NCBI GenBank assembly: GCA_026389845.1
Contig: JAPLHB010000190.1
Span: 9,845 to 73,844, forward strand
Reading direction: 5' to 3'
From: Chloroflexota bacterium
Lineage (GTDB): Bacteria; Chloroflexota; Anaerolineae; CG2-30-64-16
DNA length: 64,000 nt
Position numbers and translations under genes: made by a program. A model generated the notes under the pieces. It was not told the origin of the DNA. It was given only the letters and a program-made list of their open reading frames with translations, and searched no databases. Positions 19,317 through 45,760 of the stretch are shown here, piece after piece. The number at the start of each line of letters is the position of its first letter. Within the stretch, counting starts at the first letter, position 1.

Positions 19317-19845
19317 GAAGGCGAGGGGAAGCGCGCAAAGCTCTGGGGCGCGGAGCTGGCGCAGGCGATGAAGTGACCGGCCCGCGCTCATGGGCTGCTG
19401 GATCAGGCGCCGGCGCGTGTAGGCGCCGGCGCGAGCCGCGGAGGCTGTCATGCCAAGACCAACGACGAAAGCCCAAAGCCTGGCCGACACCTGACTGAAT
19501 GGGAGCAGACGAGGAAAGCCATTTTCGTGCGCCGCGATCTGCCGGGCGGCGGGTCCCCAAACCCAACGGGGGGTGCAATCCAGTCTACGCGCCATGTTCC
19601 CTCACCACAGGCGGCACTCGTCGAGCGTACACTCGAAGGCCATGGTAGCGCTTCTGTTCGATCATCCCAAGTCATGGCGCCGTGGAAGCTAGTACTGACG
19701 ACGGCCGGTGGTCGTCTTCAAGTTCAGTGAGTTTCCCAAAAGGAAAGTATTGTGCTAAACTTGGATACCAGAAAGTGTGTAGCCTCGCAACACGCGTTCT
19801 GTGCTTGTTGGATCATCTTTGCTTCGTGATGCTGAACTGATCGCC

Positions 19846-20622
19846 ATGATCGCAATCCCTGAATCCGCCCTTCGCTTCGGTTTCGAAAACGGTCTCGGCG
19901 GCGCGCATACCAGCCGAACGCTGATGTTGTCCGAGTTGCAGCTTCTGTTTGCGGCTTGTTCGGCGACAGCGACCTACCAAGACTACTGTGCAGCCATCCT
20001 GGATGAAAACTGCCTGCTGAAACAGACAGCGACCACGCGCAGGCGCTCGCTGTGGGCGTTGCGCGAGCTCTATGGTCTTGACCGGCGCCTCCTGGTGTTT
20101 CGAGCGCTACGGGACCTGTGGGAGATCAGTGTTGAAGCACAGCCTCTGCTGGCTTGCCTTTGCGCCATGGCCCGTGATCCCCTTCTTCGCAGTACCTCGA
20201 AGGTCATCGTGGAGGCACAGCCTGGGGCAGTGGTGGCTTCCGATGCCCTCTCAACAGCCATTGCAGAGAGCTTCCCTGGCCGTCTCAATGCGAACATCCT
20301 CGATAAAGTTGGGCGCAACGCGGCCTCCTCATGGACGCAGTCCGGTCATCTCATTGGACGCCAGACCAAGTTGCGCACGGTGGCCCAGAGCAGCCCTGCT
20401 ACTGTAGCTTATGCCCTGCTGCTCGGTCACTTATGCGACGTGCGCGGGAACCTCCTGTTTGAGACCTTGTGGGCGCGCCTGCTCGACGCGCCGGCGCGCC
20501 TGCTCCACGAGCAGGCGTTCGCCGCGTCGCGCCTGGGTTGGCTGGAGTATCGGCATGCCGGCGACGTGACCGACGTGCAGTTCTCCTATCTGCTCAGGGC
20601 TGAGGAGCGGACCGGTGAGTGA
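19846..20622 (+). CDS. brxA: BREX system protein BrxA (DUF1819)
   Basis: Position directly 5' of brxB/brxC and helical DUF1819-like sequence. The track ORF starts at GTG 19801; ATG 19846 preferred. Start uncertain. Confidence 0.65.
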   Translation: MIAIPESALRFGFENGLGGAHTSRTLMLSELQLLFAACSATATYQDYCAAILDENCLLKQTATTRRRSLWALRELYGLDRRLLVFRALRDLWEISVEAQPLLACLCAMARDPLLRSTSKVIVEAQPGAVVASDALSTAIAESFPGRLNANILDKVGRNAASSWTQSGHLIGRQTKLRTVAQSSPATVAYALLLGHLCDVRGNLLFETLWARLLDAPARLLHEQAFAASRLGWLEYRHAGDVTDVQFSYLLRAEERTGE

Positions 20623-21163
20623 GATCGAACTCCTGTTGCAGCAGTACGAACGGCTGGTCGGTATGCCCTGGACGGAGCGTTTGTCGGGCGCCGAGAAGGT
20701 GTGGTTTGTTGTTTACGAACCGGCCCAGGAGCGCCGCCTGCGCCTGCGCCTGCAGGAGTTTCAGATCGTCACAGAGAAGGCCGGCCACGGCTGGAAATTC
20801 GTTGATCTCACGGATGCGTTTGCCCGCTGGATGACAGGCCATCGCTACCGTGAGTCCTATTTCAAGCGGCCGGAGTTGTTGAGCGAGTCCGCGCTGAGTG
20901 GGTTTGCTGCGGCTGTGGCCGATGAGATCAAAGCCGCGCTCGCCACATCCGGCGTGGATGAACGCACGGTCGTGGCGGTCGGCGGGCTGGGATCGCTGTT
21001 TGGCATCGTGCGAGCGTCCGACGTGCTAGGCCAGGTCACCCAGGCCGTTGTCGGCCGCCTGCTGATCTTCTTCCCCGGACGCTACGAAAATAAGGTCTAC
21101 CGCCTGCTGGATGCCAGGGACGGCTGGAACTACCTCGCCGTGCCGATCACCGCCGAAACATAA
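20615..21163 (+). CDS. brxB: BREX system protein BrxB (DUF1788)
   Basis: 182 aa. GTG start overlaps the brxA stop; canonical BREX-1 gene order. Confidence 0.7.
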   Translation: MSEIELLLQQYERLVGMPWTERLSGAEKVWFVVYEPAQERRLRLRLQEFQIVTEKAGHGWKFVDLTDAFARWMTGHRYRESYFKRPELLSESALSGFAAAVADEIKAALATSGVDERTVVAVGGLGSLFGIVRASDVLGQVTQAVVGRLLIFFPGRYENKVYRLLDARDGWNYLAVPITAET

Positions 21164-21170
21164 GAGGGCC

Positions 21171-21250
21171 TGTCCGCATAACTCGCAGCGCGGGCTCCCA
21201 TGCCCGCAACCGGCGGCGTGGGAGCCGCCTCCGCTGGATATTTGATAGGC
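21171..21250. repeat. palindromic REP-like element (core GCGGGCTCCCATGCCCGCAACCGGCGGCG...TGGGAGCCGCCTCCGCTGG); second copy at 33722-33824
   Basis: Near-identical core at 21185-21232 and 33741-33810, each bounded by degenerate CCTATCCGAATAA-type inverted ends. Both copies sit immediately 3' of a gene (brxB; the SPFH gene). Confidence 0.5.
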
Positions 21251-21265
21251 TCAAAGGATGAAGCC

Positions 21266-24200
21266 ATGCTCAACCGAGAAGTCTTCACCAAGGATCCGAC
21301 GACATTCGCCATCCCCAACGACGGGGTCACGGTGGTGGGTGACCCGCAACGGCCCGAAGAGTGGGACGTCCTCCGCTATGAGCTGACCGCGTTCGTGTGC
21401 GAAGGCGAGTACCAGCGCGGCCTGGTGCGCGTGCTGTCCACCTTTCTCCAACACCTCTCACGGCCCAAGCAGCCGGCGGTCTGGGTGAGCGGCTTCTATG
21501 GCAGCGGCAAGTCGCACTTCGTGCGCGTGCTGCAGTACCTGTGGAACAACGTGACCCTGCCGGATGGCGCGCAGGCCCGCGGACTGACGAAGCTACCCGT
21601 CGAAGTGAACGAGCTGCTGACTGAGCTGACCACGGAGGGCAAGCGCCACGGCGGGCTGTGGGCGGCCGCGGGCAAGCTCGGCACAAGTCCAAGCATCCAA
21701 CTCGACATGCTCAAGATCCTCTTTCGGAGCGCGGGCCTGCCGGTTGACTATGCGCCGGCGCGCCTGGTCACGTGGCTGAGGCTGAAAGGGATCTACGATG
21801 CGGTCGCGGCCGGCGTCAGCCAGCGCGGCGCGGAACTGGCGTTCGAACTGGCCAACATGCATGTCTCGCTGGAGCTGGCCGAGAGCATCCACGACGCCTA
21901 TCCGGGCCTGGCCGCGGATGCGCTGGCCGTGTCGGATAAGCTCCAGGCGGAGTTCCCCGGCAAGACGGGGATTGACGATGACGAGATGTTGCAAGCCATG
22001 GAGGATGTGCTGCGTCTGCAATCCAGGGCGCCCGGCAAGCTGCCGCTGACCCTCCTGGTGCTGGACGAGCTGCAACAATCCATCGGCGAACAGCCGGACC
22101 GTGCGTTGGCAGTGCAGGAGATCGTGGAGGCGTGCTCCACCCGCTTCGGCAGCCGCATCCTCTTCGTGGGCACGGGCCAGGCTGCCCTGGAGGCGACGCC
22201 CCAGCTTGGCAAGCTGCAGGATCGCTTCACGGTCCGGGTGCCCCTCGAGGACAAGGATGTCGAGCGGGTCGTACGGGAGGTGGTGCTGCGCAAAGCGCCG
22301 GACAAGGTACCGGCCTTGCAGGCCGTCCTCGATGCGGCCAGCGGCGAGATCAACCGGCATCTGGCCGGCAGCAAGATCGGGTCAACCAGCGCTGACAGCG
22401 GCGACCTGGTACCCGAATACCCGCTGCTGCCCACGCGGCGGCGCTTCTGGGAGCGGGCGCTGCGGGCCATTGATCGCGCGGGCACCGCCGCGCAATTGCG
22501 CACCCAACTGCGCGTGGTGCACGAGGCGGCGAAGGGAGTCGCAGCCCGACCGCTGGGCACCGTGGTCGGGGCGGATACCCTCTATGACCAACAAAAATCG
22601 GCCATGTTGTTGGGACGAGTCCTCCTGCCGGAGATCGCGGCCGCCATTGACGATTTGCGCAAGGATGGCTCGGCCGCGGGCGTGCTCAAGGCCCGGCTCT
22701 GCGCCCTGATCTTCCTGATCGGCGAGCTGCCGGAGATCGGCGTGGCCGCGCCCGGCTTGCGCGCCACCCCGGACACATTGGCTGATCTGCTGGTGGAGGA
22801 CCTGACCGCCGGCAGCGCGGCCCTGCGCGGCCAGATTCCGGGGCTGCTGACGCAACTGGTGGACGCCGGCGCGCTGATGGCCGTGGACGACGCCTACCAC
22901 TTGCAGACCCAGGAGAGCCGTGAGTGGACGCGCGTCTTCAACACACACACCAGCCGCATCAAGGCCGACGATGCGCGCATCGCGGCTGACCGATCCACCG
23001 CGCTCCGCGGCGCGGTGCAGGAGGCTGTGAAGAAGATCCGGCCGGTGCAGGGCGAAAGCAAAACGGTGCGGCGCTTCGAGTTCTATTTTGGTACCGATGT
23101 CCCGCTCGCCGGCGGTGCGTCCGCACCGGAGGCGGTGCCGGTGTGGGTGCGCGACGGCTGGTCGGCCTCCGAGAAGGCGTTCCGGGAGGAGGCCCAGGCG
23201 GCCGGTTCCAACAGCCCCATCGTGTTCATATTCCTGCCGCGCCTCGGCGATGAGGAGCTCAGATCCGCGCTGGCCGGGACCGCGGCCGCGGTGGCCACCA
23301 TCGAGGCCGAGCCGACCCCCAAGACGAGCCAGGAGGGCGCGGCGGCGCACCAGGCCATGGCCTCGCGCCTGACCTCGGAAGCCGAACGCGTGGCGGGGTG
23401 CGTCGCCGTCAGCATCGCCAACGCCCGGGTCTACCAGGGCGGCGGCAACGAGATCGCGGAGGGCAGCCTGGCCGCTGCGGTCGAGGCGGCCATCGGGAAC
23501 GCGCTGGCGCGGCTCTTCCCCAACTTCAAGCTGGCCGATGACGCCAACTGGGGCAAGGTGGTCAAGCGCGCCGGCGAGGGCGCCGGCGATCCGCTGTCGG
23601 GCCTCGGCTACACCGGCAACGCCGAGGACCATCCGGTCTGCAAAGAAGTGCAGACCTTCCTGGGGATCGGGGTGAAAAAGGGGGCCGAGGTCCGCAAGCA
23701 TTTCGGCGGCGCGGGCTACGGCTGGGGTGGCGATGCCATTGACGGCGCCCTGTTGGCCCTGGTCGCCGGCAATACGGTGCGGGCCGAGCGCAACGGCCAG
23801 CCGCTGGCCGCCAAACAGATCATCCAGTCGCAGGTCGGCGTCACGGAGTTCAAGAACGAGGCCGTGATCATCACCGCGGCGCAGCGGATCGGCGTGCGCA
23901 AGCTGATCCAGGATCTGGGCCTGGCCGTCAAGAACGGGGAGGAAGCCCAGGCGATCCCGCTGGTGCTCCAGAAGCTGTGTGACCTGGCGGCCGAGGCCGG
24001 TGGCCCGCCGCCGTTGCCCGAAAAGCCGTCCGTCGAAGCCATCAAGGAACTGCAGGCGCTGAGCGGCAACGAGCAGTTCGCCGCCGCGTTCGACGCACGG
24101 GAGACGCTGCTGGCTCAGCAGCGCGCCTGGGGCCAGGCCAAGACCGCCAAAGACGCGCGGCTGCCCCAGTGGGGGGTGCTGGGGCGGCTCCTGGCCCATG

Positions 24201-24733
24201 CGACCGGGCGGCCGGCCGCCTACACCGTCCGGCCGCAGGTCGAAGCGATCACCGCGCAACGTCTGCTCCTGGCCGAGCCGGACCCCGTCAAACCGTTGCA
24301 CGATGCCTTGACGACCGACCTCCGCAAGGCTGTCCAGGATGCCAGGCAGCGCGTCGTGGATGCCCGCGACCGGGAATTAGCTGCGCTGCGCGAGACGGAT
24401 GAGTGGCGCAAGCTCAGCGACGAGCAGTGGCGGGAGATTCTGCACGCCCAGGGGTTGGGGCCGATCGCGGAGCTGCACGCCGGCACCGATGACCTGCTGC
24501 TGGCCGCGCTGGACGCCAAACCGCTGGAGGCCTGGGCGACTGAGGCGCTGGTGGTCCCCACGCGCATGCGGCAGGCGCGCGAGCAGGCAGCCAAACTGCT
24601 GGAGCCGAAGGCCGTGCGCGTGCGGCCGAAGTCTGCGACGCTGAAGTCAGCAGCCGAAGTGGATGAGTACCTGGGTGTGCTGCGGGCAGAGATCATGGCG
24701 CATATCGAGGAAGGGAAGCCGGTGATTGTGTGA
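21266..24733 (+). CDS. brxC: BREX system P-loop ATPase BrxC
   Basis: Walker A GFYGSGKSH near the N-terminus; ~1150-aa size and position. Start refined to ATG 21266 (AAGGA RBS). Confidence 0.85.
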   Translation: MLNREVFTKDPTTFAIPNDGVTVVGDPQRPEEWDVLRYELTAFVCEGEYQRGLVRVLSTFLQHLSRPKQPAVWVSGFYGSGKSHFVRVLQYLWNNVTLPDGAQARGLTKLPVEVNELLTELTTEGKRHGGLWAAAGKLGTSPSIQLDMLKILFRSAGLPVDYAPARLVTWLRLKGIYDAVAAGVSQRGAELAFELANMHVSLELAESIHDAYPGLAADALAVSDKLQAEFPGKTGIDDDEMLQAMEDVLRLQSRAPGKLPLTLLVLDELQQSIGEQPDRALAVQEIVEACSTRFGSRILFVGTGQAALEATPQLGKLQDRFTVRVPLEDKDVERVVREVVLRKAPDKVPALQAVLDAASGEINRHLAGSKIGSTSADSGDLVPEYPLLPTRRRFWERALRAIDRAGTAAQLRTQLRVVHEAAKGVAARPLGTVVGADTLYDQQKSAMLLGRVLLPEIAAAIDDLRKDGSAAGVLKARLCALIFLIGELPEIGVAAPGLRATPDTLADLLVEDLTAGSAALRGQIPGLLTQLVDAGALMAVDDAYHLQTQESREWTRVFNTHTSRIKADDARIAADRSTALRGAVQEAVKKIRPVQGESKTVRRFEFYFGTDVPLAGGASAPEAVPVWVRDGWSASEKAFREEAQAAGSNSPIVFIFLPRLGDEELRSALAGTAAAVATIEAEPTPKTSQEGAAAHQAMASRLTSEAERVAGCVAVSIANARVYQGGGNEIAEGSLAAAVEAAIGNALARLFPNFKLADDANWGKVVKRAGEGAGDPLSGLGYTGNAEDHPVCKEVQTFLGIGVKKGAEVRKHFGGAGYGWGGDAIDGALLALVAGNTVRAERNGQPLAAKQIIQSQVGVTEFKNEAVIITAAQRIGVRKLIQDLGLAVKNGEEAQAIPLVLQKLCDLAAEAGGPPPLPEKPSVEAIKELQALSGNEQFAAAFDARETLLAQQRAWGQAKTAKDARLPQWGVLGRLLAHATGRPAAYTVRPQVEAITAQRLLLAEPDPVKPLHDALTTDLRKAVQDARQRVVDARDRELAALRETDEWRKLSDEQWREILHAQGLGPIAELHAGTDDLLLAALDAKPLEAWATEALVVPTRMRQAREQAAKLLEPKAVRVRPKSATLKSAAEVDEYLGVLRAEIMAHIEEGKPVIV

Positions 24734-24736
24734 GAG

Positions 24737-24875
24737 AGCGGGCCGGGCCGTCCACGAATGAAACACGAATACACGAATAGCGGGGGCCGGGCCGTCCACG
24801 AATGGGACACGAATTCGCGAATAGGACGGTCGCTCATTCGTGTATTCGTGACGGATTCGTGGACGGCCACCGCTT
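24737..24875. repeat. palindromic repeat unit (CACGAAT x3 / ATTCGTG x3 arms) flanking the GxxExxY gene on the left
   Basis: GTCCACGAATGAAACACGAATACACGAATA ... CATTCGTGTATTCGTGACGGATTCGTGGAC, the same unit as the tandem array at 25411-25752. Confidence 0.6.
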
Positions 24876-24911
24876 CGCACGCACGCAGAAGGGGGCGGGA
24901 AGGAGCGCACT

Positions 24912-25469
24912 ATGCCTGGGCTTGTCGTAGATGCCACCGGCAACGATCTCACCTACCGGATTATCGGCGCGGCCATGCGGGTGCATAACCGATTGGGGCC
25001 AGGGTATAAGGAAGAAGTGTATGAGCGGGCGCTGGCTGCGGAGTTAGAAACAGAAGGCGTACCGGTCGAAACGCAGTATCGGGTTGAGGTCTACGATCAG
25101 GGGATCCTGGTCGCGCTGTTTTTCCTGGATCTCTTTGTGGCCCGCACTGTCGTCGTAGAGGTCAAGGCCTTTGCTCATCAGCTCACGAACGATGAGCGCG
25201 CGCAGGTCATCAACTACTTGAAGGCTACCGGCGCGGCGGTGGGCCTGCTGTTCAACTTCGGCCGGCGCAGGCTGGAGTTCCCGCGCATCTTCCCCGGCGC
25301 GGCGGCCACGGGAGACGATTTGCCGCAACGCCTGGGGCGTGATAATGTCAAGAAGCGTGCCGTGCACGAGTTTGGGGCCGGGCCGCCGTCCACACCCGAT
25401 GCCAGACGCGAGAGTGGCGGGGGCCGGGCCGGGCCGCCGTCCACGAATGAAACACGAATACGCGAATAA
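24912..25469 (+). CDS. GxxExxY family protein (PD-(D/E)XK-like)
   Basis: N-terminal IIGAAMRVHNRLGPGYKEEVYERAL (GxxExxY) and VEVK motifs. The true protein is probably ~130 aa; the 3' tail of the ORF reads into the repeat array. Confidence 0.55.
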   Translation: MPGLVVDATGNDLTYRIIGAAMRVHNRLGPGYKEEVYERALAAELETEGVPVETQYRVEVYDQGILVALFFLDLFVARTVVVEVKAFAHQLTNDERAQVINYLKATGAAVGLLFNFGRRRLEFPRIFPGAAATGDDLPQRLGRDNVKKRAVHEFGAGPPSTPDARRESGGGRAGPPSTNETRIRE

Positions 25470-25752
25470 TGACGGGCGGCCATTCGTGGATTCGTGACGG
25501 ATTCGGGGACGGCGACGACCCGACGCGAGAGCAGCGGGGGCCGGGCCGGGCCGCCGTCCACGAATGGGACACGAATTCACGAATAGCGGCGGGCGGCCAT
25601 TCGTGGATTCGTGACGGATTCGGGGACGGCGACGACCCGACGCGAGCGTAGCGGGGCCGGGCCGCCGTCCACGAATGAAACACGAATTCAAGAATAACGA
25701 CGGGCGGCCATTCGTGTATTCGTGGCGGATTCGTGGACGGCGACGACCCGGC
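25411..25752. repeat. tandem array of three ~118-bp palindromic repeat units
   Basis: Units begin near 25411, 25530 and 25648. Each contains the inverted (CACGAAT)3 arms and a GGGCCGGGCCG spacer-like GC stretch. There is no unique spacer content. Confidence 0.6.
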
Positions 25753-25781: not shown

Positions 25782-28700
25782 ATGCCATCCCTACCCACCG
25801 ACCTCCGCAAAACCCTTGAAAATGCCATCAACGCGGCCCGGCGGGCCGCGGAGGAGGCGGCGCGCGCCGCGTTGACCACGCTGGCCGTCGCCCGCGACGA
25901 CCCGTTCGCGACCATGGACGAGCCGCAGCGCCAACTGCGCCGCGGCCTGCGCGCGGTGGCGCGCCGACTGGGCGATGACACAAAGTCCGACGCGTTGCCC
26001 CTCCTGACCCACGAGGTCGCCTACGAGCAGTGGCACCGCATGTTGTTCGCTCGCTTCCTGGCCGAGAACGATCTGCTGATGCACCCCTCTGGTGTCGCAG
26101 TGTCGCTGGCGGATTGCGCGGAACTGGCCCCTGACGAAGGCGCGGCCGACGCCTGGGACCTGGCCGCGCGCTACGCGGCTGCGATGTTGCCCGGCATCTT
26201 CCTGGCGGACGATCCGACCGTCCAGGTGCGCTTTGCGCCGGAGGGCCGCCAGCGGCTCGAAGCGATCCTGGCCGGCCTGCCGCCCGCGGTCTTCACCGCC
26301 GACGACGGCCTGGGGTGGGTCTACCAGTTCTGGCAGACGGACAAGAAGCGTGAAGTGAACGCCAGCGGCCGCAAGATCGGCGGGGCCGACCTGGCGCCGG
26401 TGACGCAGCTCTTCACCGAAGACTACATGGTGCGCTTCCTGCTGGAGAACTCGCTCGGCGCGTGGTGGGCGGCGCGCCACCCGGATAGTCCGCTGGTGAA
26501 GGAGTGGGGTTATTTACGGTGGGTGGACGAGGAGTCAGGAGTCAGGAGTCAGGGAGCAGGAGGCAGCGACGGCAATACGCAATACGCAGTACGCAGTACG
26601 CAATACGCAGTACGCAATACGCCGTCCCGCGTCCCCGCCGCCGGCGCCTTCCCCGGCTGGCCCGACCGCGCGGCGCAGGTGACGATGATGGATCCCTGCG
26701 GCGGGTCGGGGCATTTCGTGGTGGCCGAGTTCGGCATGATGCTGCGCATGCGGATGGAGGAGGAGGGGCTGAGCGCGTCCGCGGCCGGCGACGCGGTGAT
26801 CCGCGATAACCTCTTCATGCTGGAGCTGGACCCCCGCTGCACGCAGATCGCGACCTTTGCGCTGGCGTTAGCGGCCTGGAAGAGCGGCGGCTACCGGCCG
26901 CTGCCGACCCCCAACATCGCCTGCTCCGGCATCGCAGTGACGGGACAGCTCGAGGACTGGCTGCGCCTGGCCCGCGGGGACGAACGGCTGCGCACCGCGC
27001 TGGAACGACTGCACAAGCTCTTTACGAACGCGCCCACCCTGGGCAGCCTGATCAATCCCGCGGACGTGCCGCTGAGCGAGCGGATGTTCAGCGCCGACTA
27101 CGAGGAGGTGGCGCCGCTGTTGGGGAAGGCGTTGGCAAAGGAGCGGGACGATCCGGCCGCGGCCGTGTTGGGCGCTGCGGCGGAGGGGGTGGCGAAGGCA
27201 GCGAAGCTGCTGGCAGGGCAGTACACGCTGGTGGCGACGAATGTGCCGTATCTGGGACGCAGCCTCCAGACAGAAACGCTCAAGAACTTTGCAGACAGGG
27301 TTTTTCCAGTCTCAAGGGCTGACCTGGCCACCGTTTTTGTGGAGCGTTCTCTGTCATTTACAGACTCGGGTGGTACCTGTGCGGTTGTCACCCCTCAGAA
27401 CTGGCTGTTTTTGAAATCGTATGAAGAACTTCGCAGGAAATTGCTTCAGTCCCAGTCGTGGAACCTGCTTGCGAGATTGGGTGCTCAAGCATTTCAGACC
27501 CCGATGTGGGATTTCAATGTTGGGCTATTTATCGTCACACACCGTCCACCGGCAGAAAACCATGAAGTGGGAGGAACGGACGTCTCACGTAGCCGAAAGC
27601 CATCGGTCAAGGCCGATTTGTTGCGGAATGACCCAATTCGGTTCGTTAACCAAGAGAGCGAGCTACGAAATCCCGATACGAGGATCACGCTCGAAAAAGC
27701 CAACCTTGGTGCGTTGCTCCTGCATTATGCAGACGGGCTGCAGGGAATCTCCCCGGCAGACTATCCCAGGTTCGGTCGTTGCTTTTGGGAGCTACCAAGA
27801 CTAATCGAGGGCTGGCGATGGTATCAAGGCACGGTTAGTTCTACGATGCCCTTTGGTGGACGCGAAAGAGTTCTCTGGTTTGACGCTCTCTTGCGAGCAG
27901 CACAGGAGCTTGGTTCTGCAATTCGAGGCCGAGCTGCGTGGGGCAAATGGGGTGTGGCAATAAGCCAGATCGGGAAACTCTCCGCGAACTTGTACACAGG
28001 CGATTTGTTCGACAACAACTTGGCGGCTCTGATTCCACACGATCAGACTTTGCTTCCCGCGCTGTGGGCTTATTGTCAGTCCCCGACCTTCCACGACCAA
28101 GTCAGGCGAATCGATCAGAAGCTCTACGTCCAGAATGCTACGCTGGTGAAAATTCCTTTCGACCTTGACTACTGGCAGCAAGTCGCAGACGCGGCCGGCC
28201 CCCTCCCCGAGCCGTACTCCGACGACCCCACCCAATGGCTCTTCAACGGCCACTCCGCGGGCGCCACCGAGCCGCTGCAGGTGGCCGTGGCGCGGCTGTT
28301 GGGCTATCGCTGGCCGCAGCAGGCCCAGGACCACCTCGGCGCCCACGCCGATGCGGATGGCATCGTCTGCCTGCCCGCGGTGGGCGGCGAACAGCCGGCG
28401 GCCGAACGCCTGCGCGCGCTCCTGGCCGCAGCCTTCGCCAATCCGCAATCCCTGCCCAACACCGCAGACGCCGGGCACGCAATACGCAGTACGCAATACG
28501 CCGGATGGTCGGCCGCTGTCCAGGAGCAGTTGCTCGCCGCGGCCGGATTCCCCAGCAAGACCCTGGACGACTGGCTGGCCGACGGCTTCTTCCCGCAGCA
28601 CTGCCGCGTCTTCCACAACCGGCCCTTCATCTGGCATGTCTGGGACGGCCGCAAAGATGGCTTCTCGGCGTTGGTCAACTACCACAAGCTGGATCGCGCT

Positions 28701-29084
28701 GTCCTGGAGAAACTGATCTATACTTACCTCGGCGCGTGGATCACCCGCCAGCGCGATGACCGCGACGCCGGCGCCCCGGCCGCGGAGGGGCGGTTGGTGG
28801 CCGCGCTGGCGCTGCAGAAGAAGCTGATCGCCATCCTGGAGGGGGAGCCGCCGTACGACATCTACGTGCGCTGGAAGCCGCTCCATCAGCAGCCCATCGG
28901 CTGGGCGCCGGACCTCAACGACGGCGTGCGGCTCAACATCCGGCCATTTGTCACAGCGGGCGTGCTGCGGAGCCGGTTCACGATCAATTGGAAGGTGGAC
29001 CGCGGCACGAATCCGGACGGCAGCGAGCGGATCAATGATCGGCACGTCACGCGGGCGGAGAAGCTGGCGGCGCGGGGAAAGTGA
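25782..29084 (+). CDS. pglX: BREX-1 adenine-specific DNA methyltransferase PglX
   Basis: ~1100 aa; DPCGGSGHF (motif I) region; C-terminal block conserved with the remnant at 31331-31568; canonical position. Start refined to ATG 25782. Confidence 0.85.
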   Translation: MPSLPTDLRKTLENAINAARRAAEEAARAALTTLAVARDDPFATMDEPQRQLRRGLRAVARRLGDDTKSDALPLLTHEVAYEQWHRMLFARFLAENDLLMHPSGVAVSLADCAELAPDEGAADAWDLAARYAAAMLPGIFLADDPTVQVRFAPEGRQRLEAILAGLPPAVFTADDGLGWVYQFWQTDKKREVNASGRKIGGADLAPVTQLFTEDYMVRFLLENSLGAWWAARHPDSPLVKEWGYLRWVDEESGVRSQGAGGSDGNTQYAVRSTQYAVRNTPSRVPAAGAFPGWPDRAAQVTMMDPCGGSGHFVVAEFGMMLRMRMEEEGLSASAAGDAVIRDNLFMLELDPRCTQIATFALALAAWKSGGYRPLPTPNIACSGIAVTGQLEDWLRLARGDERLRTALERLHKLFTNAPTLGSLINPADVPLSERMFSADYEEVAPLLGKALAKERDDPAAAVLGAAAEGVAKAAKLLAGQYTLVATNVPYLGRSLQTETLKNFADRVFPVSRADLATVFVERSLSFTDSGGTCAVVTPQNWLFLKSYEELRRKLLQSQSWNLLARLGAQAFQTPMWDFNVGLFIVTHRPPAENHEVGGTDVSRSRKPSVKADLLRNDPIRFVNQESELRNPDTRITLEKANLGALLLHYADGLQGISPADYPRFGRCFWELPRLIEGWRWYQGTVSSTMPFGGRERVLWFDALLRAAQELGSAIRGRAAWGKWGVAISQIGKLSANLYTGDLFDNNLAALIPHDQTLLPALWAYCQSPTFHDQVRRIDQKLYVQNATLVKIPFDLDYWQQVADAAGPLPEPYSDDPTQWLFNGHSAGATEPLQVAVARLLGYRWPQQAQDHLGAHADADGIVCLPAVGGEQPAAERLRALLAAAFANPQSLPNTADAGHAIRSTQYAGWSAAVQEQLLAAAGFPSKTLDDWLADGFFPQHCRVFHNRPFIWHVWDGRKDGFSALVNYHKLDRAVLEKLIYTYLGAWITRQRDDRDAGAPAAEGRLVAALALQKKLIAILEGEPPYDIYVRWKPLHQQPIGWAPDLNDGVRLNIRPFVTAGVLRSRFTINWKVDRGTNPDGSERINDRHVTRAEKLAARGK
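26531..26626 (+). repeat. two adjacent heptanucleotide tandem-repeat tracts inside pglX: (GAGTCAG)3-5 then (AATACGC/AGTACGC)7
   Basis: Direct reading of 26531-26626; encodes ...SGVRSQGAGGSDGNTQYAVRSTQYAVRNT... inserted just before motif I. A shorter (3-unit) copy of the ACGCAATACGCAGTACGC tract recurs at 28481-28501. Confidence 0.7.
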
Positions 29085-34293: not shown

Positions 34294-36612
34294 ATGACTG
34301 ATAGCATGACCTTCCTTGATGCGCTGGCGCAAGCTATCTATCGCGCGGGCAGCTACAACAAGAATGACCAATGCCCGCCGGCCGCGATCCTCTGGCCCGA
34401 CAAGGAGCGCCAGTGGGAGCCGCTGCTGCCGGCGCTGCGCGAGCGGCTGCCGCTGCTGACTCTCGGCCCCTACGCGCCCCAAGAGCGCAGCGGCCCGGCC
34501 TGCTGGCTGCGCTGCATGATCGCGCGCACGTTGCCCGACGACATCCTGCCGGCCGACGCCGCCCCGATCATCTATCTGCCGGGGGTCAGCCGCGCCGAAA
34601 TCCGCGCCATCGAGGAGTGCCCCAAGCCGCTCCAGCCGCTCGCCGAGCTTCAGTACCGCGGCGTGCTGTGGACGCACAAGAACGGCCGCGACTGGACGGT
34701 CGCCGGCTTCTTGCAGAGTACCGACAGTGGCCTGGGCATCGCCGTCAGCGGCGACACAGCCACGAAGGAAGCGCTTGGTCGGGCGTTGCTCAAGCTGGCT
34801 TACGAACCGGTAGCTCGCCTGAAGAAGGAGGCGCCGCTCCGTGCGGCCTTCTTCGACGAATTGCTCAACCCGGATCAAGTACGACGTCTGTTGCTCTGGC
34901 TTAATGACCCCGATAGCTACCCAAAGACCCTGGCCCAGGCCGAGTGGTACGCATTTTGCGACCTCTGCAAGCGCACATACGGCCTTCACCCCGTGGACGA
35001 CGGCGCGCTGATCGCGGCGGAACGTCTCGGGACTTCGCAGGGCGCCTGGGAGATCGTCTGGGACCGCTTCAACGAGAATCTGGAGGGGTATCCCAACCTG
35101 CCGGAACTCCTGCGCCGGGCGCGGCCGGAACGATCTATCTTTGAAAAGAGCCTGCCCTACTGGCCGCAGGACACCGAAACGGCCGAGGGGGACTTGCGCG
35201 CGGCGCTGCTGGCGTTGGGCGATGCTTCACCGACCGGCGCGCGCGAGGGCATCGCGCAGCTTGAGGCCGAGCACGGCGCGCGCCGCGGCTGGATCTGGGC
35301 CAGGCTGGGCCGGGCTCCACTCGCCGCCGCGCTGGCACATCTGGCGGCCCTGGCCCAGGCAACCGAGAAAACGCTCGGCGGCGCGACTGTGGCCGACGTA
35401 GCCGCGGCTTACACTGGAGGGGGCTGGCAGGCAGATGCCGCCGTGTTGGATGCGTTGGCCGCGGTTGAGGCCGCGGAGGACGTGGCAGCAGTGAAGGCCG
35501 CGCTCCTGCCGCTCTACCGCCCGTGGCTGGAAAAAGCAGCGGCGGCGCTCCAGGCCGCCATCCTCGGCAACCCGGTAGCGAACTATGGGACGACGACGCC
35601 ACCGGCAGCCGATGCGGGCACGTGCATCTTGTTCAGCGATGCCTTGCGTTTCGATGCCGGCATGAGGCTGGTGGCCGCGCTGGAGCGCCGGGGCCTGTCA
35701 TGTACCACCGGGTGGCGCCTGGCCGCCCTGCCAACCGTCACGCCGACAGCCAAGCCCGCGGTTTCGCCTGTCGCTGAACTGATGATTGGCAGCAGCGAGC
35801 CGAGCCTGACCCCGGTGGTCAAAGCGACCGGCGCGAGCAGTACGGTTGCCACCTTGCGCAAGCTGCTCGAAGGGGCCGGCTACCAGATCCTGACCGGGGA
35901 TGCCCTCGGCGATCCGAGCGGGATGGCGTGGACCGAGTTGGGCGCGATAGACCAGTACGGCCACGAGCACGGTTGGGAGGTGGCGCATCATCTGCCGGGC
36001 GAGCTGCGCAACCTCGAAAGACGGATCGACGCGCTGCTGAGCCACGGCTGGCAGCAGGTGATGGTCCTCACCGACCACGGCTGGCTCCTGCTCCCCGGCG
36101 GCCTGCCGAAGATCGAGCTGAAAGAGCATCTGACCGTGCTCCGCAAGGGCCGCTGCGCCGCGCTCAAAGAGGGCGCGCAGACCGATCAGCACACGATCCC
36201 GTGGCATTGGGACAAGAACGTGCGTATCGCCGTAGCGTCGGGCATCGCCTGTTACGAGGCCGGCAAAGAGTACGAGCACGGCGGCATCAGCCCGCAAGAG
36301 TGCGTCGTGCCGGTCATCGCGGTCTCAAGGCCGGTTGCCACCATCGCCCAAGAGACCCAAATCACCGGCGTCACCTGGAAGGGGCTGCGCTGCTCGGTCT
36401 CAGTGAGTGGGGCGGGTGCGGGCATGACCGCCGACATCCGCACCAAGGCGGGCAACGCGGCCACGTCGCTCACCACGCCGCGACCCGTCGAGACCGGCGC
36501 CGCGTCACTGTTGGTCGAGGATGACGACCAACTGGGCGCGGCTGCGTTCGTCGTGGTCCTTGCAGCAGATGGGTCGCTCGTGGCACAAACACAGACCACG
36601 ATTAGCGGATAA
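34294..36612 (+). CDS. pglZ: BREX-1 alkaline-phosphatase-superfamily protein PglZ
   Basis: 772 aa, PglZ-type phosphatase domain (TDHGW, QYGHEHG metal-binding segments); canonical position before brxL. Confidence 0.85.
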   Translation: MTDSMTFLDALAQAIYRAGSYNKNDQCPPAAILWPDKERQWEPLLPALRERLPLLTLGPYAPQERSGPACWLRCMIARTLPDDILPADAAPIIYLPGVSRAEIRAIEECPKPLQPLAELQYRGVLWTHKNGRDWTVAGFLQSTDSGLGIAVSGDTATKEALGRALLKLAYEPVARLKKEAPLRAAFFDELLNPDQVRRLLLWLNDPDSYPKTLAQAEWYAFCDLCKRTYGLHPVDDGALIAAERLGTSQGAWEIVWDRFNENLEGYPNLPELLRRARPERSIFEKSLPYWPQDTETAEGDLRAALLALGDASPTGAREGIAQLEAEHGARRGWIWARLGRAPLAAALAHLAALAQATEKTLGGATVADVAAAYTGGGWQADAAVLDALAAVEAAEDVAAVKAALLPLYRPWLEKAAAALQAAILGNPVANYGTTTPPAADAGTCILFSDALRFDAGMRLVAALERRGLSCTTGWRLAALPTVTPTAKPAVSPVAELMIGSSEPSLTPVVKATGASSTVATLRKLLEGAGYQILTGDALGDPSGMAWTELGAIDQYGHEHGWEVAHHLPGELRNLERRIDALLSHGWQQVMVLTDHGWLLLPGGLPKIELKEHLTVLRKGRCAALKEGAQTDQHTIPWHWDKNVRIAVASGIACYEAGKEYEHGGISPQECVVPVIAVSRPVATIAQETQITGVTWKGLRCSVSVSGAGAGMTADIRTKAGNAATSLTTPRPVETGAASLLVEDDDQLGAAAFVVVLAADGSLVAQTQTTISG

Positions 36613-36741
36613 GTGTAGGGCAATTTGCCAAATTGCCCTACAGAACCGACCGGAATAGAGCCTTCAGGCGGTCTGGCGAGCGCACGAACCGGCTGAAGCC
36701 TTGAATCCAGAGCAGCGGGGAGCGATTTTCAGGACGGTAAG

Positions 36742-38787
36742 ATGGAACTGGATAGGTTGGACCAACTCGCGGCCGAAGCATTCACGGGGTACGTCGTCCG
36801 CAAGGACCTGGCTCTGCGGTTTCGCGGCCAGTATCCCGTGCCGACCTACGTCGGCGAGTTCCTGTTGGGACGCTACTGCGCCAGCACCGACCCGGCCGAG
36901 ATCGCGGAAGGGCTGGAGATCGTCGAGCGCCAGATGCGCGAGCGCACCGTGCGGCCGGGCGAGGAAGAGTTGTTCAAGTCACGGGCGCGCGAGCGCGGCT
37001 CAGTCAAGCTGATTGATCTGATCACCGCGCGGCTGGACACCGCGACCGACTCCTACCTGGCCACGCTGCCCAGCCTGCGCTTGCGCGACGTGCGCATCGA
37101 CGCGGAGACGGTCGCGGGCAACGAGCGCATGTTGACCGGCGGCTTCTATGCCGAAATCCAGCTTGAGTACGACGCCGCGATTGCCCAGGAACGCAACGGC
37201 CGGCCCTTCGGCATCACCGCCTTGCGCCCCATCCAGCTTTCCAAGCGCGGCGTTTCGGATGACCTGGCCCGCGGCCGCGCGGCCTTCACCACCGAGGAAT
37301 GGCGGCAACTCCTGTTGCGGAGCGTCGGCTTCGAGCCGGAGCAGTTCACCCGGCGGGCACAAGACATTCTGCTCCTGCGTATGGTCCCGTTCGTCGAGCG
37401 CAACTTCAACGTGGTGGAGCTTGGTCCGCGCGGCACCGGCAAGTCACACCTCTACCAGCAAATCTCCCCCTACTCGCACCTGGTCTCCGGCGGCAAGGCC
37501 ACCGTGGCGCAGATGTTCGTCAACAACGCCACGGGCCAACGCGGCCTGGTGTGCCTCTACGACGTGGTCTGCTTCGATGAGGTCTCCGGCATCGCCTTCG
37601 ACCAGCGGGACGGCGTCAACATCATGAAGGGCTACATGGAGGCCGGGGAGTTCAGCCGGGGCCGCGAGAACATCCGCGCCAGTGGCAGCATCGTCATGGT
37701 GGGCAACTTCGAGGTGGACGTGGAGCATCAGCAGCGGATCGGCCACCTGCTGGGCCCGCTCCCGCCGGAGATGCGCAACGACACCGCCTTCATGGATCGC
37801 ATCCACGCCTACCTGCCCGGCTGGGACGTGCCCAAGCTCGACCGCGCCCTGTTCACCGAGCACTTCGGACTGGTGAGTGACTTCCTGTCAGAGGGTTGGT
37901 CACAACTGCGTGCCGAGAACCGGCTGCCGGTCGTCGCGAGCCGCATCCGCTACGGCAGCGCGATCAGCGGCCGCGATGCCAACGCCATCAACCACACCGT
38001 CAATGGCCTGCTCAAGCTGCTCTATCCCGACCGCGAGATGGCGATCAGCGATGAAGACCTGGCATGGGCCGTGGAACTGGCGCTGGAGTGTCGCCGCAGG
38101 GTGAAGGAGCAGCAGAAGCGCATCGGCAGCGCAGAGTTCCGCAACACCCACTTCAGCTATCAACTCGGCGTCGAAGGGGTCGAGAAGTTCGTCGTGACAC
38201 CGGAGCTACAAAGCACCCAGGCCATCGGCAGCGATCCGCTGCCGCCGGGCCAGGTGTGGGGCATCAGCCCCGGCGGTCCGGACGAAGGCGCCGGCCTCTA
38301 CCGGATTGACGTCAACGTGGGGCCGGGCGCCGGCGTGCGCATCGTCAACTTCCCCGCGCCGGGGCCGTTCCGCGAGAGCATCAAGTACGGCGAGCAGAAC
38401 CTGATCATGCGTGCCCGCGAGCTCGTCGGCGACCGCGACCCGCGCCAGCACGAGTTCACCGTGCAACTGCGCGCCTTCGACGCGGCCAAGACCGGAGCGT
38501 TCCTGGGCCTGCCCGCGCTGCTGGCATTCTGCAGCGCGCTGCTGGGCAAGAGCCTGAAGGGTGGCCTGATCGCCGTCGGCGCGCTCAACCTGGGCGGCGG
38601 CCTCGACCCGGTCTACAACGCCGTCAACGTTGCCGAGTTGGCGATCGAGAAGGGCGCGTCCATGCTGCTCATCCCCATCTCCGCCCGCCGGCAGTTGAAC
38701 GAGCTGTCGGACGAGATGGCGATGAAGCTGACGATCCTGTTCTATGCGGACGCGCGCGAGGCGCTGTTGAAGGCGCTGGGGGATTAG
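36742..38787 (+). CDS. brxL: BREX system Lon protease-like protein BrxL
   Basis: 681 aa; AAA+-like P-loop GPRGTGKSH plus C-terminal Lon protease-like domain; terminal gene of the BREX-1 operon. Confidence 0.85.
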   Translation: MELDRLDQLAAEAFTGYVVRKDLALRFRGQYPVPTYVGEFLLGRYCASTDPAEIAEGLEIVERQMRERTVRPGEEELFKSRARERGSVKLIDLITARLDTATDSYLATLPSLRLRDVRIDAETVAGNERMLTGGFYAEIQLEYDAAIAQERNGRPFGITALRPIQLSKRGVSDDLARGRAAFTTEEWRQLLLRSVGFEPEQFTRRAQDILLLRMVPFVERNFNVVELGPRGTGKSHLYQQISPYSHLVSGGKATVAQMFVNNATGQRGLVCLYDVVCFDEVSGIAFDQRDGVNIMKGYMEAGEFSRGRENIRASGSIVMVGNFEVDVEHQQRIGHLLGPLPPEMRNDTAFMDRIHAYLPGWDVPKLDRALFTEHFGLVSDFLSEGWSQLRAENRLPVVASRIRYGSAISGRDANAINHTVNGLLKLLYPDREMAISDEDLAWAVELALECRRRVKEQQKRIGSAEFRNTHFSYQLGVEGVEKFVVTPELQSTQAIGSDPLPPGQVWGISPGGPDEGAGLYRIDVNVGPGAGVRIVNFPAPGPFRESIKYGEQNLIMRARELVGDRDPRQHEFTVQLRAFDAAKTGAFLGLPALLAFCSALLGKSLKGGLIAVGALNLGGGLDPVYNAVNVAELAIEKGASMLLIPISARRQLNELSDEMAMKLTILFYADAREALLKALGD

Positions 38788-45725: not shown

Positions 45726-45760
45726 TGCGTGACAAGGTGACAAGGTGACAAGGTGATAGT
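45726..45760. repeat. (CACCTTGT)3 tandem octamer immediately upstream of the histidine-kinase start codon
   Basis: Plus strand reads GTGACAAGGTGACAAGGTGACAAGGTGA. Confidence 0.4.

What the first reader, a model, noticed from the sequence alone, without database searches (positions are those of the whole stretch)
26531..26626. In-frame heptanucleotide microsatellites inside pglX: possible phase-variation switch
(GAGTCAG)n is directly followed by (AATACGC/AGTACGC)7, and a 3-unit copy of the second repeat is at 28481-28501. Gain or loss of one 7-bp unit would frameshift the methyltransferase. Slipped-strand mispairing could thus toggle BREX ON/OFF, a behaviour reported for Pgl/BREX methyltransferases via other repeat types. 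The repeats encode an NTQYAVRSTQYAVRNT insertion just upstream of motif I.
Basis: partly seen in the sequence, partly recalled or inferred. Interest (0 to 1): 0.55.

Follow-up and report, generated by a model that had tools for sequence, protein, structure and literature searches.

The report
Seven-base repeats inside BREX methyltransferase gene
The seven-base tandem repeats in this phage-defence methyltransferase gene are real and could knock the gene out of frame by slipping, but they look mainly like a common kind of repeat tolerated in a floppy protein loop, not a proven on/off switch.

Summary
An intact pglX in a complete type 1 BREX locus carries (GGAGTCA)3 plus two decayed units, then seven AATACGC/AGTACGC units (26530-26622). 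Three more units lie at 28481-28501. All are in frame.

Gain or loss of one or two units stops translation at residue 297-344, at or just after motif I, so no methyltransferase domain would be made.

The switch interpretation is only partly supported.

For it:
- The three closest orthologues carry the same two-part array at the same loop, with different copy numbers and lineage-specific units.
- Four relatives have a frameshift inside their tract.

Against it:
- The window's arrays are short and interrupted, with at most three perfect units.
- Recent growth was in 21-bp in-frame steps.
- Two orthologues with about 10% flank divergence have identical tracts.
- At least 23 tract-bearing alleles are intact against 4 shifted ones.
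- The same heptamer occurs at more than 119 genomic sites, mostly in Chloroflexota, and none is pglX. Four checked sites lie in frame inside recognisable housekeeping-type enzymes.

Period-7 arrays are strongly over-represented in those genomes. Both peptides are predicted to be disordered.

Best reading: a heptameric simple-sequence repeat in a permissive PglX loop that sometimes inactivates BREX. Programmed phase variation remains possible but unproven.

The parts
25782..29084 (+). pglX (BREX type 1 N6-adenine methyltransferase), intact, 1100 aa. An alternative GTG start lies at 25722.
   Evidence: PADLOC PDLC02528 matched at 22-1119 of 1120 residues, E=0. Pfam Eco57I, N6_Mtase and MmeI_Mtase hits. 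Homologous to the solved PglX/BrxX structures 8c45 and 9ewz.
26530..26566 (+). Array A: (GGAGTCA)x3 perfect plus two decayed units. Encodes ESGVRSQGAGG.
   Evidence: The homologous GRGNCAG arrays in L001, L002 and L003 have 5 to 8 units.
26574..26622 (+). Array B: seven AATACGC/AGTACGC units in the order A A G G A G A, with a 21-bp higher-order period. Encodes NTQYAVRSTQYAVRNT.
   Evidence: Homologous arrays are AATACGC in L001, AATCGAA in L002 and AATCTGC in L003/L124.
28477..28503 (+). Array C: ACGCAAT ACGCAGT ACGCAAT, flanked by the direct repeat ACGCCGG. Encodes HAIRSTQYA in a second variable loop. Unique to this allele.
   Evidence: Absent from L001, L002 and L003 at that site. Its 3' junction, AATACGCCG, is the same as that of array B.
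26691..26717 (+). Methyltransferase motif I (DPCGGSGHF), 23 residues after array B. The N(V)PY catalytic motif (TNVPYL) is at residues 486-491.
19801..24733 (+). brxA (19801-20622), brxB (20615-21163) and brxC (21200-24733).
   Evidence: PADLOC BrxA 9e-87, BrxB 2e-72, BrxC E=0.
34294..38787 (+). pglZ (34294-36612) and brxL (36742-38787).
   Evidence: PADLOC PglZ 3e-279. BrxL 4e-285.
24740..25750 (.). Hairpin elements built from inverted CACGAAT/ATTCGTG heptamer arrays. One copy lies at 24740-24870 and three 117-bp tandem copies at 25405-25750. They flank a GxxExxY (PDDEXK_3) gene at 24912-25469, between brxC and pglX. This is context showing that the genome carries other heptamer-repeat elements.
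   Evidence: Hairpin fold of -49.6 kcal/mol, z=-2.9.

Best explanation
The tracts are heptanucleotide simple-sequence repeats of the long-SSR / STRR-like kind that is over-represented in many bacterial genomes. They sit in frame in two disordered surface loops of PglX that tolerate insertions.

The first loop links the N-terminal helical bundle to the methyltransferase fold, just before motif I. It has carried a two-part heptamer array since the ancestor of a Chloroflexota PglX subclade. The array turns over by replication slippage or unequal exchange. This is seen as different copy numbers and lineage-specific homogenised units. Selection on an intact BREX methyltransferase keeps only lengths divisible by three, and recent growth was in 21-bp steps.

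The third array, 1.9 kb downstream, is probably an ectopic copy of array B made by template switching at the shared ACGCCG microhomology.

Slips of one or two units do occur in nature and destroy PglX, and therefore BREX methylation and defence. In this allele the arrays are short and interrupted. Such events are therefore expected to be infrequent by-products, not a tuned high-frequency switch.

Shown:
- The anatomy of the arrays and the consequences of unit changes for the reading frame.
- Orthology of the arrays across relatives.
- Dispersal of the heptamer to other genomes and genes.
- Predicted disorder of the encoded peptides.

Inferred:
- The slippage mechanism.
- The template-switch origin of array C.
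- The low switching rate.
For: - Of the 80 listed loci, 50 are Chloroflexota by my count, and several MAGs have 3 to 5 loci each. None of these loci is pglX.
- Period bias: in those 807 kb, with the ascertained array excluded, there are 45 perfect period-7 arrays of at least 3 copies. Periods 4-6 and 8-9 give 1 to 14 each, and periods 10-12 give none.
- Other genes: the arrays lie in frame inside a PLP-dependent Orn/DAP/Arg-type decarboxylase, gamma-glutamyltranspeptidase, a class A PBP and an ABC permease.
- Hypervariable loop: 23 of 108 full-length relatives carry inserts at the PglX site, many with 7-residue periodicity. The rest read YLRFRDDG-TPAAG.
- Predicted disorder: the lowest-confidence coil segments of the AlphaFold model are residues 251-281 and 888-907, which are exactly the two tract peptides.
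- Orthology: the closest orthologues share the architecture (GRGNCAG)n-CGACGG-(AATNNNN)n with 5+7, 5+4, 8+5 and 5+5 units.
- In-frame growth: there is 21-bp higher-order periodicity in the window and in L128.
- Stability: the tract is identical in L003 and L124 although their flanks are about 90% identical.
- Imperfection: the longest perfect run in the window is 3 units.
- Literature: heptameric SSRs are over-represented in bacteria and also occur as inverted pairs (PMC4692102, PMC4679880).
Against: - The tract sits where a contingency repeat would be expected, in the 5' third of the gene before the catalytic motifs. pglX is the BREX gene known to phase-vary.
- Of five disrupted tract-bearing alleles, four shift frame inside the tract. 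The binomial p is about 0.0005-0.016, depending on the fraction of the sampled length assumed to be tract.
- Lineage-specific homogenisation of units implies continuing slippage.
- In 64 kb, the only exact period-7 runs are in pglX.
- Nothing is known about read-level heterogeneity in this strain.
Confidence: 0.6

Rival explanations
1. This is a true contingency locus. The heptamer arrays are maintained because slipped-strand mispairing switches PglX, and so BREX, ON and OFF reversibly. It would follow the 'divisible by three' rule of neuO, letting a subpopulation escape BREX costs or take up DNA.
For: - One or two unit changes truncate the protein at residue 297-344.
- The array is conserved at the same site in orthologues, with different copy numbers and homogenised units.
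- Shifted alleles L203, L204, L205 and L206 have otherwise collinear coding sequence. In L203 and L204 a single added unit would restore the frame.
- Disruptions are enriched at the tract.
- Precedents exist: the pglX G-tract (PMC4365076), pglX phase variation described as common (PMC11341690), and the neuO heptanucleotide switch (PMC13001214).
Against: - The arrays are short and interrupted, with at most 3 perfect units. neuO has 3-53 perfect units and 65.6% of genomes are OFF (PMC13001214).
- At least 23 tract-bearing alleles are ON against 4 OFF, although the two samples were collected differently.
- L003 and L124 have identical tracts despite about 10% flank divergence.
- Growth was in 21-bp steps.
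- The same heptamer arrays sit in housekeeping-type genes that are not expected to phase-vary.
- Frameshifted pglX fragments are common outside tracts too: 52 of 120 fragments, many from assemblies of unknown error rate.
- L203 has a second frameshift, so it may be a decaying pseudogene.
Confidence: 0.27
2. The tracts are footprints of a mobile or insertion-prone repeat element, analogous to in-frame MITE or RPE insertions. They would have landed in pglX and been tolerated, with no slippage-based dynamics of their own.
For: - The same heptamer array is dispersed over many genomes and phyla, sometimes as inverted pairs.
- L205 carries (GGAGATT)4...(AATCTCC)3, an inverted heptamer pair, in the same PglX loop.
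- Array C is flanked by a 7-bp direct repeat, ACGCCGG.
- Hairpin elements made of heptamers lie just upstream of pglX.
- Other orthologues carry different repeat-like inserts in this loop (P0008, P0012, P0096).
Against: - The two-part array is orthologous in four lineages and has diverged in place, with homogenised units. That requires in-situ turnover.
- The pglX tract does not fold as a hairpin (z=+0.85).
- No transposase or other mobilising gene is associated. The GxxExxY gene is not linked to AATACGC arrays (0 hits in 807 kb).
Confidence: 0.08
3. The repeat-encoded peptide is itself functional. It would be a tunable linker whose length modulates PglX activity or complex formation, or helps evade phage inhibitors, as longer heptad tracts raise NeuO activity.
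For: - The loop lies between the N-terminal bundle and the methyltransferase fold.
- Length varies in 7-residue steps among orthologues.
- NeuO is a precedent (PMC13001214).
Against: - About four-fifths of the close relatives work without any insert (85 of 108 full-length relatives have none), so the peptide is dispensable.
- The peptide sequence is not conserved. Only its 7-nt DNA periodicity is.
- It is predicted to be disordered.
Confidence: 0.05

Closest known systems
neuO heptanucleotide contingency repeat of E. coli K1 (5'-AAGACTC-3')n
   Same: A tandem 7-nt unit inside the 5' part of a coding sequence, translated as a 7-residue repeat. The full-length protein is made only when the unit count keeps the frame, that is, when it is divisible by three (PMC13001214; for pglX).
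   Different: neuO tracts are perfect and long (3-53 units, commonly about 20). Strains differ widely and 65.6% of genomes are OFF. Here there are two different adjacent arrays of 5 and 7 units, both interrupted, and most relatives are ON. No switching has been measured.
Phase variation of pglX in the Streptomyces coelicolor Pgl (type 2 BREX) system
   Same: The same gene family and the same logical outcome: a length change in a repeat within pglX turns phage resistance off and on (PMC4365076).
   Different: In S. coelicolor the repeat is a homopolymeric G tract, with measured switching of 1e-2 to 1e-4. Here the repeat is a heptamer array in a type 1 system of Chloroflexota, and no rate is known.
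Over-represented heptameric long SSRs: cyanobacterial STRR, Xanthomonas GGGAATC, Beggiatoaceae/cyanobacterial TAACTGA
   Same: Tandem 7-nt units occur in many dispersed copies per genome, with several unit families per genome. They sometimes form inverted pairs that fold as stem-loops. Length varies between related strains, and the same unit appears in distant phyla (PMC4692102, PMC4679880).
   Different: The published families are mostly intergenic. The AATACGC family seen here is often in frame inside genes. No paper in the searched library mentions this unit.
In-frame repeat-element insertions in proteins (Rickettsia palindromic elements); named from my own knowledge
   Same: Selfish or neutral repeats are tolerated in surface loops of otherwise conserved proteins, including housekeeping enzymes.
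   Different: RPEs are 100-150-bp palindromic elements, not tandem heptamers. No element termini are defined here.

Membership tests
BREX type 1 PglX methyltransferase | Full-length match to a PglX profile, with gamma-class N6-adenine methyltransferase motifs (motif I GxG and NPPY-type motif IV) | tested here: met
   PDLC02528 E=0 over residues 22-1119. DPCGGSGHF at 304-312 and TNVPYL at 486-491, both invariant in the family alignment. Aligns to the solved structures 8c45 and 9ewz.
BREX type 1 PglX methyltransferase | Encoded in a locus with brxA, brxB, brxC, pglZ and brxL | tested here: met
   All six genes are on the + strand between 19801 and 38787, with inserted genes between them.
SSR-mediated phase-variable (contingency) locus | A tandem repeat within the ORF or promoter whose unit length is not a multiple of three, so that a unit change alters expression | tested here: met
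   7-nt units. +/-1 or +/-2 units give a stop at residue 297-344, and +/-3 keeps the frame.
SSR-mediated phase-variable (contingency) locus | A tract long and perfect enough to be hypermutable | tested here: not met
   The longest perfect run is 3 units (24 nt). Array B is interrupted in 3 of 7 units. For comparison, neuO has 3-53 perfect units (PMC13001214) and the H. influenzae hmw repeats have 13-38 (PMC2651432).
SSR-mediated phase-variable (contingency) locus | Copy-number polymorphism, including OFF alleles, among closely related strains | tested here: inconclusive
   Copy number differs between orthologues of 68-77% identity, and four shifted alleles exist in relatives. However, L003 and L124 have identical tracts. 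No conspecific sequence of the window was found: the best full-length relative has 74% protein identity and the best N-terminal fragment has 91%.
SSR-mediated phase-variable (contingency) locus | Reversible high-frequency switching of the phenotype | not testable with these tools
   Needs reads or cultures of the source organism.
Heptameric long SSR / STRR-like dispersed repeats | The same 7-nt unit occurs as tandem arrays at many unrelated loci | tested here: met
   More than 119 loci, with several per MAG. None is pglX. This was shown in other genomes. Only 64 kb of the source genome is available.
Heptameric long SSR / STRR-like dispersed repeats | Excess of period-7 arrays over neighbouring periods, with several unit families per genome | tested here: met
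   45 period-7 arrays, against 1-14 each for periods 4-6 and 8-9 and none for periods 10-12, with many different units. The window has GGAGTCA, AATACGC and CACGAAT families.
Heptameric long SSR / STRR-like dispersed repeats | Predominantly intergenic location | tested here: not met
   93 of 125 arrays lie in stop-free stretches of at least 150 codons. Four of the six spanning ORFs scanned against Pfam lie in frame within or between domains of recognisable enzymes. The stop-free criterion over-counts in GC-rich DNA.
MITE/RPE-like in-frame insertion element | Defined element ends, target-site duplication and hairpin potential | tested here: inconclusive
   Array C has the flanking direct repeat ACGCCGG. 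L205 has inverted arrays. The window's main tract does not fold, and no common termini were identified.

The most novel reading that the evidence does not exclude
The loop before motif I of PglX in a Chloroflexota subclade is a conserved, selected heptanucleotide contingency site. It would be a neuO-like 'divisible-by-three' switch that turns BREX on and off in environmental bacteria, built from a heptamer-repeat system that these phyla share. A bolder version holds that the cross-phylum identity of the AATACGC unit, and its in-frame spread into housekeeping genes, reflect a dedicated but unknown repeat-generating or repeat-transferring mechanism.
Probability: 0.25. Interest if true: 0.6.

Novelty: new member of a known kind. 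Interest (0 to 1): 0.4.

Why it matters
If the tract does switch BREX, it would be the first simple-sequence-repeat switch described for a type 1 BREX system outside pathogens and streptomycetes. It would show that environmental Chloroflexota hedge their bets on phage defence as mucosal pathogens do.

Even under the more likely 'tolerated repeat' reading, two points are useful.
- A specific, disordered PglX loop accepts 20-60-residue insertions. This is relevant for engineering and for reading PglX structures.
- Chloroflexota and several other phyla carry a heptamer-repeat family (AATACGC) that often sits in frame inside conserved proteins. Annotators will meet it as odd NTQYAIR peptides and as occasional apparent frameshifts.

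Tried and rejected
- Chance or artefact: rejected by shuffles and by orthologous arrays in independent assemblies.
- A pglX-specific repeat: rejected. The genome scan found the same heptamer in more than 119 non-pglX loci.
- Link between AATACGC arrays and GxxExxY (PDDEXK_3) genes, suggested by the heptamer hairpins that flank such a gene upstream of pglX: no GxxExxY hit in 807 kb around the arrays.
- Structured DNA or RNA at the tract: none (z=+0.85).
- OFF alleles in 80 metagenomic pglX loci: all are single-frame, but only about 4 carry a tract, so the test has little power.
- Conspecific strains for copy-number comparison: none found. The best full-length relative has 74% protein identity. 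The 91%-identical N-terminal fragment P0121 lacks the tract and is frame-shifted elsewhere.
- P0138/L207 as a near-isogenic OFF partner of L208 (98% nt identity): the break is exactly in the tract, but the sequence then diverges and the contig ends after about 140 bp. It could be an insertion, a rearrangement or an assembly break, so it was not counted as a slip.
- Literature: no paper in the searched library links heptanucleotide repeats with Chloroflexi or mentions this unit.
- Idea not pursued: that ACGCAG or AGTCAG within the units is the BREX recognition motif. There is no way to infer the motif here.
Full report
**What is there**

The window has 64% G+C. It carries a complete type 1 BREX locus on the + strand:
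- brxA, 19801-20622
- brxB, 20615-21163
- brxC, 21200-24733
- pglX, 25782-29084
- pglZ, 34294-36612
- brxL, 36742-38787

All have very strong PADLOC matches. Extra genes are inserted between them.

Three heptanucleotide arrays lie inside pglX.
- Array A (26530-26566): three perfect GGAGTCA units and two decayed ones.
- Array B (26574-26622): follows the junction CGACGGC. It has seven units in the order AATACGC, AATACGC, AGTACGC, AGTACGC, AATACGC, AGTACGC, AATACGC, with a 21-bp higher-order period (93% matches).
- Array C (28481-28501): three units of the same family.

The gene is intact and matches the PglX profile end to end. The arrays encode EESGVRSQGAGGSDG-NTQYAVRSTQYAVRNT (residues 250-281) and HAIRSTQYA (about residues 899-907).

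The repeats far exceed chance. The longest exact period-7 run is 17 nt, against at most 11 in 200 shuffles. The best 42-nt window has 38 matches, against at most 27 in 100 shuffles.

**Frame logic**

I edited the sequence in silico. Removing or adding one or two units in either array moves the first stop to residue 297-344. That is at or just after motif I (DPCGGSGHF, residues 304-312) and far upstream of the NVPY catalytic motif. Three units more or fewer keep the frame.

**Where the tracts sit in the protein**

In an alignment of 36 relatives, all from Chloroflexota-type sources, array A+B falls in a hypervariable gap. The gap lies between the conserved ...SPL..(Y/F)LR(W/F) and PAAGTFPGWP...DPCGGSGHF. 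Of 108 full-length relatives, 85 read essentially YLRFRDDG-TPAAG. The other 23 carry inserts of about 10-60 residues, many with 7-residue periodicity.

By homology the gap corresponds to residues about 280-305 of Salmonella PglX (8c45). That region lies between the N-terminal helical bundle and the methyltransferase fold (PMC11341690).

The AlphaFold model is of moderate quality overall (mean pLDDT 69.5). Its lowest-confidence coil segments are residues 251-281 and 888-907, which are exactly the two repeat-encoded peptides. Both tracts therefore lie in loops predicted to be disordered, and many relatives lack them.

**Orthologues at the DNA level**

The three closest full-length relatives have 72-77% identity in the alignment (74%, 72% and 70% by BLASTP). 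All carry the same two-part architecture at the same position:

| Locus | Array A type | Array B type |
|---|---|---|
| Window | 5 units | 7 x AATACGC/AGTACGC |
| L001 | 5 units | about 4 x AATACGC |
| L002 | 8 units | AATCGGC + 3 x AATCGAA |
| L003 | 5 units | 4.7 perfect AATCTGC |

The shared form is (GRGNCAG)n, then CGACGG, then (AATNNNN)n. The arrays are therefore inherited, not independent insertions. Each lineage has homogenised its own unit variant, which is concerted evolution, and copy number differs. This implies continuing slippage or unequal exchange over evolutionary time.

Two observations point to slow, in-frame turnover.
- L003 and L124 are about 90% identical in the flanking pglX DNA, yet have identical tracts in both sequence and copy number.
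- In the window and in L128 the newest repeats are 21-bp blocks of three different heptamers. Recent growth therefore went in frame-preserving steps.

Array C is unique to the window. It replaces part of a second variable loop and is flanked by the direct repeat ACGCCGG. It shares its 3' junction, AATACGCCG, with array B. I infer an ectopic copy made by template switching at that microhomology.

**Are there OFF alleles?**

All 80 metagenomic pglX loci fetched were single-frame. Only about four carry a tract, so this test has little power.

A protein search with the N-terminal 249 residues returned 120 short fragments. Of these, 52 end in out-of-frame tails, at positions spread over about 280 alignment columns. 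Disrupted pglX fragments are thus common in these data in general. This fits the literature on frequently disrupted pglX (PMC9122589), but it could also reflect assembly error.

Five disrupted fragments carry a tract.
- P0124/L204, P0125/L203, P0130/L205 and P0149/L206 change frame inside the heptamer region, with collinear coding sequence on both sides.
- In L203 (13 CAATTCA/CCATTCA units) and L204, one added unit would restore the frame.
- The fifth, P0139, shifts frame 12 residues after its tract.

Four of five is more than expected if disruptions were spread evenly. The binomial p is 0.0005-0.016 for a tract share of 10-25% of the sampled length. This is real support for 'the tract is a frameshift hotspot'. 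The caveats are the small numbers, a second frameshift in L203, unknown sequencing platforms, and 23 intact tract-bearing alleles collected by a different search.

**The repeat is not specific to pglX**

I estimate about 17 hits from uniform composition. Of the 80 listed loci, 50 are Chloroflexota by my count. The rest are Planctomycetota, Kiritimatiellales, Bacteroidota/Rhodothermales, Gemmatimonadota and others. Several MAGs have 3-5 loci, and some loci have inverted pairs. None of these loci encodes PglX.

I excluded the ascertained arrays and counted perfect arrays of at least three copies in the same 807 kb. Period 7 gave 45, with many different units. Periods 4-6 and 8-9 gave 1-14 each, and periods 10-12 gave none.

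The AATACGC arrays often lie in long open frames, giving NTQYAIR or STQYAVR peptides. I scanned six spanning ORFs against Pfam. Four of them place the array in frame within or between domains of recognisable enzymes:
- a PLP-dependent Orn/DAP/Arg-type decarboxylase
- gamma-glutamyltranspeptidase
- a class A penicillin-binding protein
- an ABC permease

The window has a third heptamer family, CACGAAT. It is arranged as inverted arrays that fold into long hairpins on both sides of a GxxExxY gene between brxC and pglX.

This matches published descriptions of heptameric long SSRs. They are over-represented in many bacteria, dispersed, variable in length, sometimes inverted, and sometimes share a unit across phyla. 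No function is established for them (PMC4692102, PMC4679880). No paper in the searched library mentions this unit or links heptanucleotide repeats with Chloroflexi.

**Interpretation**

The most economical account is as follows. The pglX tracts belong to a lineage-wide class of heptameric repeats. One permissive, disordered loop of PglX has hosted such an array for a long time. The array breathes by slippage, and selection for a working BREX methyltransferase filters for lengths divisible by three. Occasional slips of one or two units inactivate the gene. I put this at about 0.6.

In neuO, the heptanucleotide AAGACTC allows translation only when the count is divisible by three, the range is 3-53 units, and 65.6% of genomes are OFF (PMC13001214). 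This claim remains possible, at about 0.27. It is favoured by the position of the tract, its conservation, the homogenised units and the tract-centred frameshifts. It is disfavoured by four things: the short interrupted arrays of this allele, the identical tracts in diverged orthologues, the ON-dominated sample, and the same repeat in housekeeping-type genes. A mobile-element footprint and a functional linker peptide are minor alternatives.

**Novelty and score**

Phase variation of pglX and heptanucleotide coding-region switches are both known, and so are heptameric dispersed repeats. New here is their coincidence: a conserved heptamer-array site in a type 1 BREX pglX of Chloroflexota, with natural frame-shifted alleles. 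Also new is the finding that the AATACGC family is frequently in frame within conserved proteins. I class it as a new member of a known kind, with moderate interest (0.4). Read-level length heterogeneity and methylome data for the source strain would decide the question. Neither is available with these tools.

Noticed in passing
window 24740-24870 and 25405-25750, flanking ORF 24912-25469: A GxxExxY (PDDEXK_3, E=2e-34) gene sits between brxC and pglX. It is bracketed by hairpin elements made of inverted CACGAAT/ATTCGTG heptamer arrays. The downstream element is a 117-bp unit repeated three times in tandem. One unit folds at -49.6 kcal/mol (z=-2.9). A GxxExxY gene occupies the same brxC-pglX position in L124, L158 and L172.
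   Followed up: partly
window 29175-31096 and 31691-33718: An AAA_21/AriA-like ATPase and an AriB-like protein (a PARIS-like pair), followed by a 675-aa SPFH/Band-7 protein, are inserted between pglX and pglZ. This looks like a defence island nested inside the BREX operon.
   Followed up: no
L064 3512-3733; L022 3-126; L083 1442-1516; L088, L091, L097: In other genomes the same heptamer forms much longer arrays: about 32 units in a Chloroflexia MAG, and 10-18 units in Kiritimatiellales and Pontiella. Some lie at contig ends, where they probably break assemblies.
   Followed up: no
L047, L066, L093, L048 (arrays at residues 334, 346, 484 and 282 of the spanning ORFs): (AATACGC)n arrays lie in frame inside a PLP-dependent Orn/DAP/Arg-type decarboxylase, gamma-glutamyltranspeptidase, a class A PBP and an ABC permease. 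They add NTQYAIR-type peptides within or between conserved domains.
   Followed up: partly
L003 5465-8683 versus L124 3001-6300: These two pglX genes are about 90% identical at the nucleotide level over the first 1.4 kb and the last 0.85 kb. The central ~1 kb, which by position falls in the region between the catalytic motif IV and the C-terminal part, does not align. This suggests a swap of the specificity region between otherwise similar alleles.
   Followed up: no
L205 1270-1340; L206 1040-1110: In a more distant PglX group the segment PAAGTFPGWP..VT.M before motif I is missing. It is replaced by repeats: (GGAGATT)4 followed by the inverted (AATCTCC)3 in L205, and (CAATTCA)4 plus CT-rich repeats in L206. 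Both genes are frame-shifted there.
   Followed up: partly
L207 5866-6005 versus L208: A pglX 98% identical to an intact one breaks exactly inside its heptamer tract (after ...CCATTCATC). It then continues into unrelated sequence for about 140 bp until the contig ends. This could be an insertion, a rearrangement or an assembly break at the repeat.
   Followed up: partly
alignment A1 columns 285-350 (P0008, P0012, P0096, P0011): Other orthologues carry non-heptamer inserts in the same loop, for example NVILS..DPSL.. and GEGRVRVEP...GEGLGVRVEP. These look like translations of other dispersed repeat elements, so the loop accepts several kinds of repeat.
   Followed up: no
L187 2-6114: Two pglX paralogues lie in tandem, with 47% and 39% identity to the query.
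   Followed up: no
window 45729-45756 and 61431-61449: A perfect octamer repeat (GTGACAAG)x3.5 and a hexamer repeat (GAAAAC)x3.2 lie elsewhere in the window. Their context was not examined.
   Followed up: no
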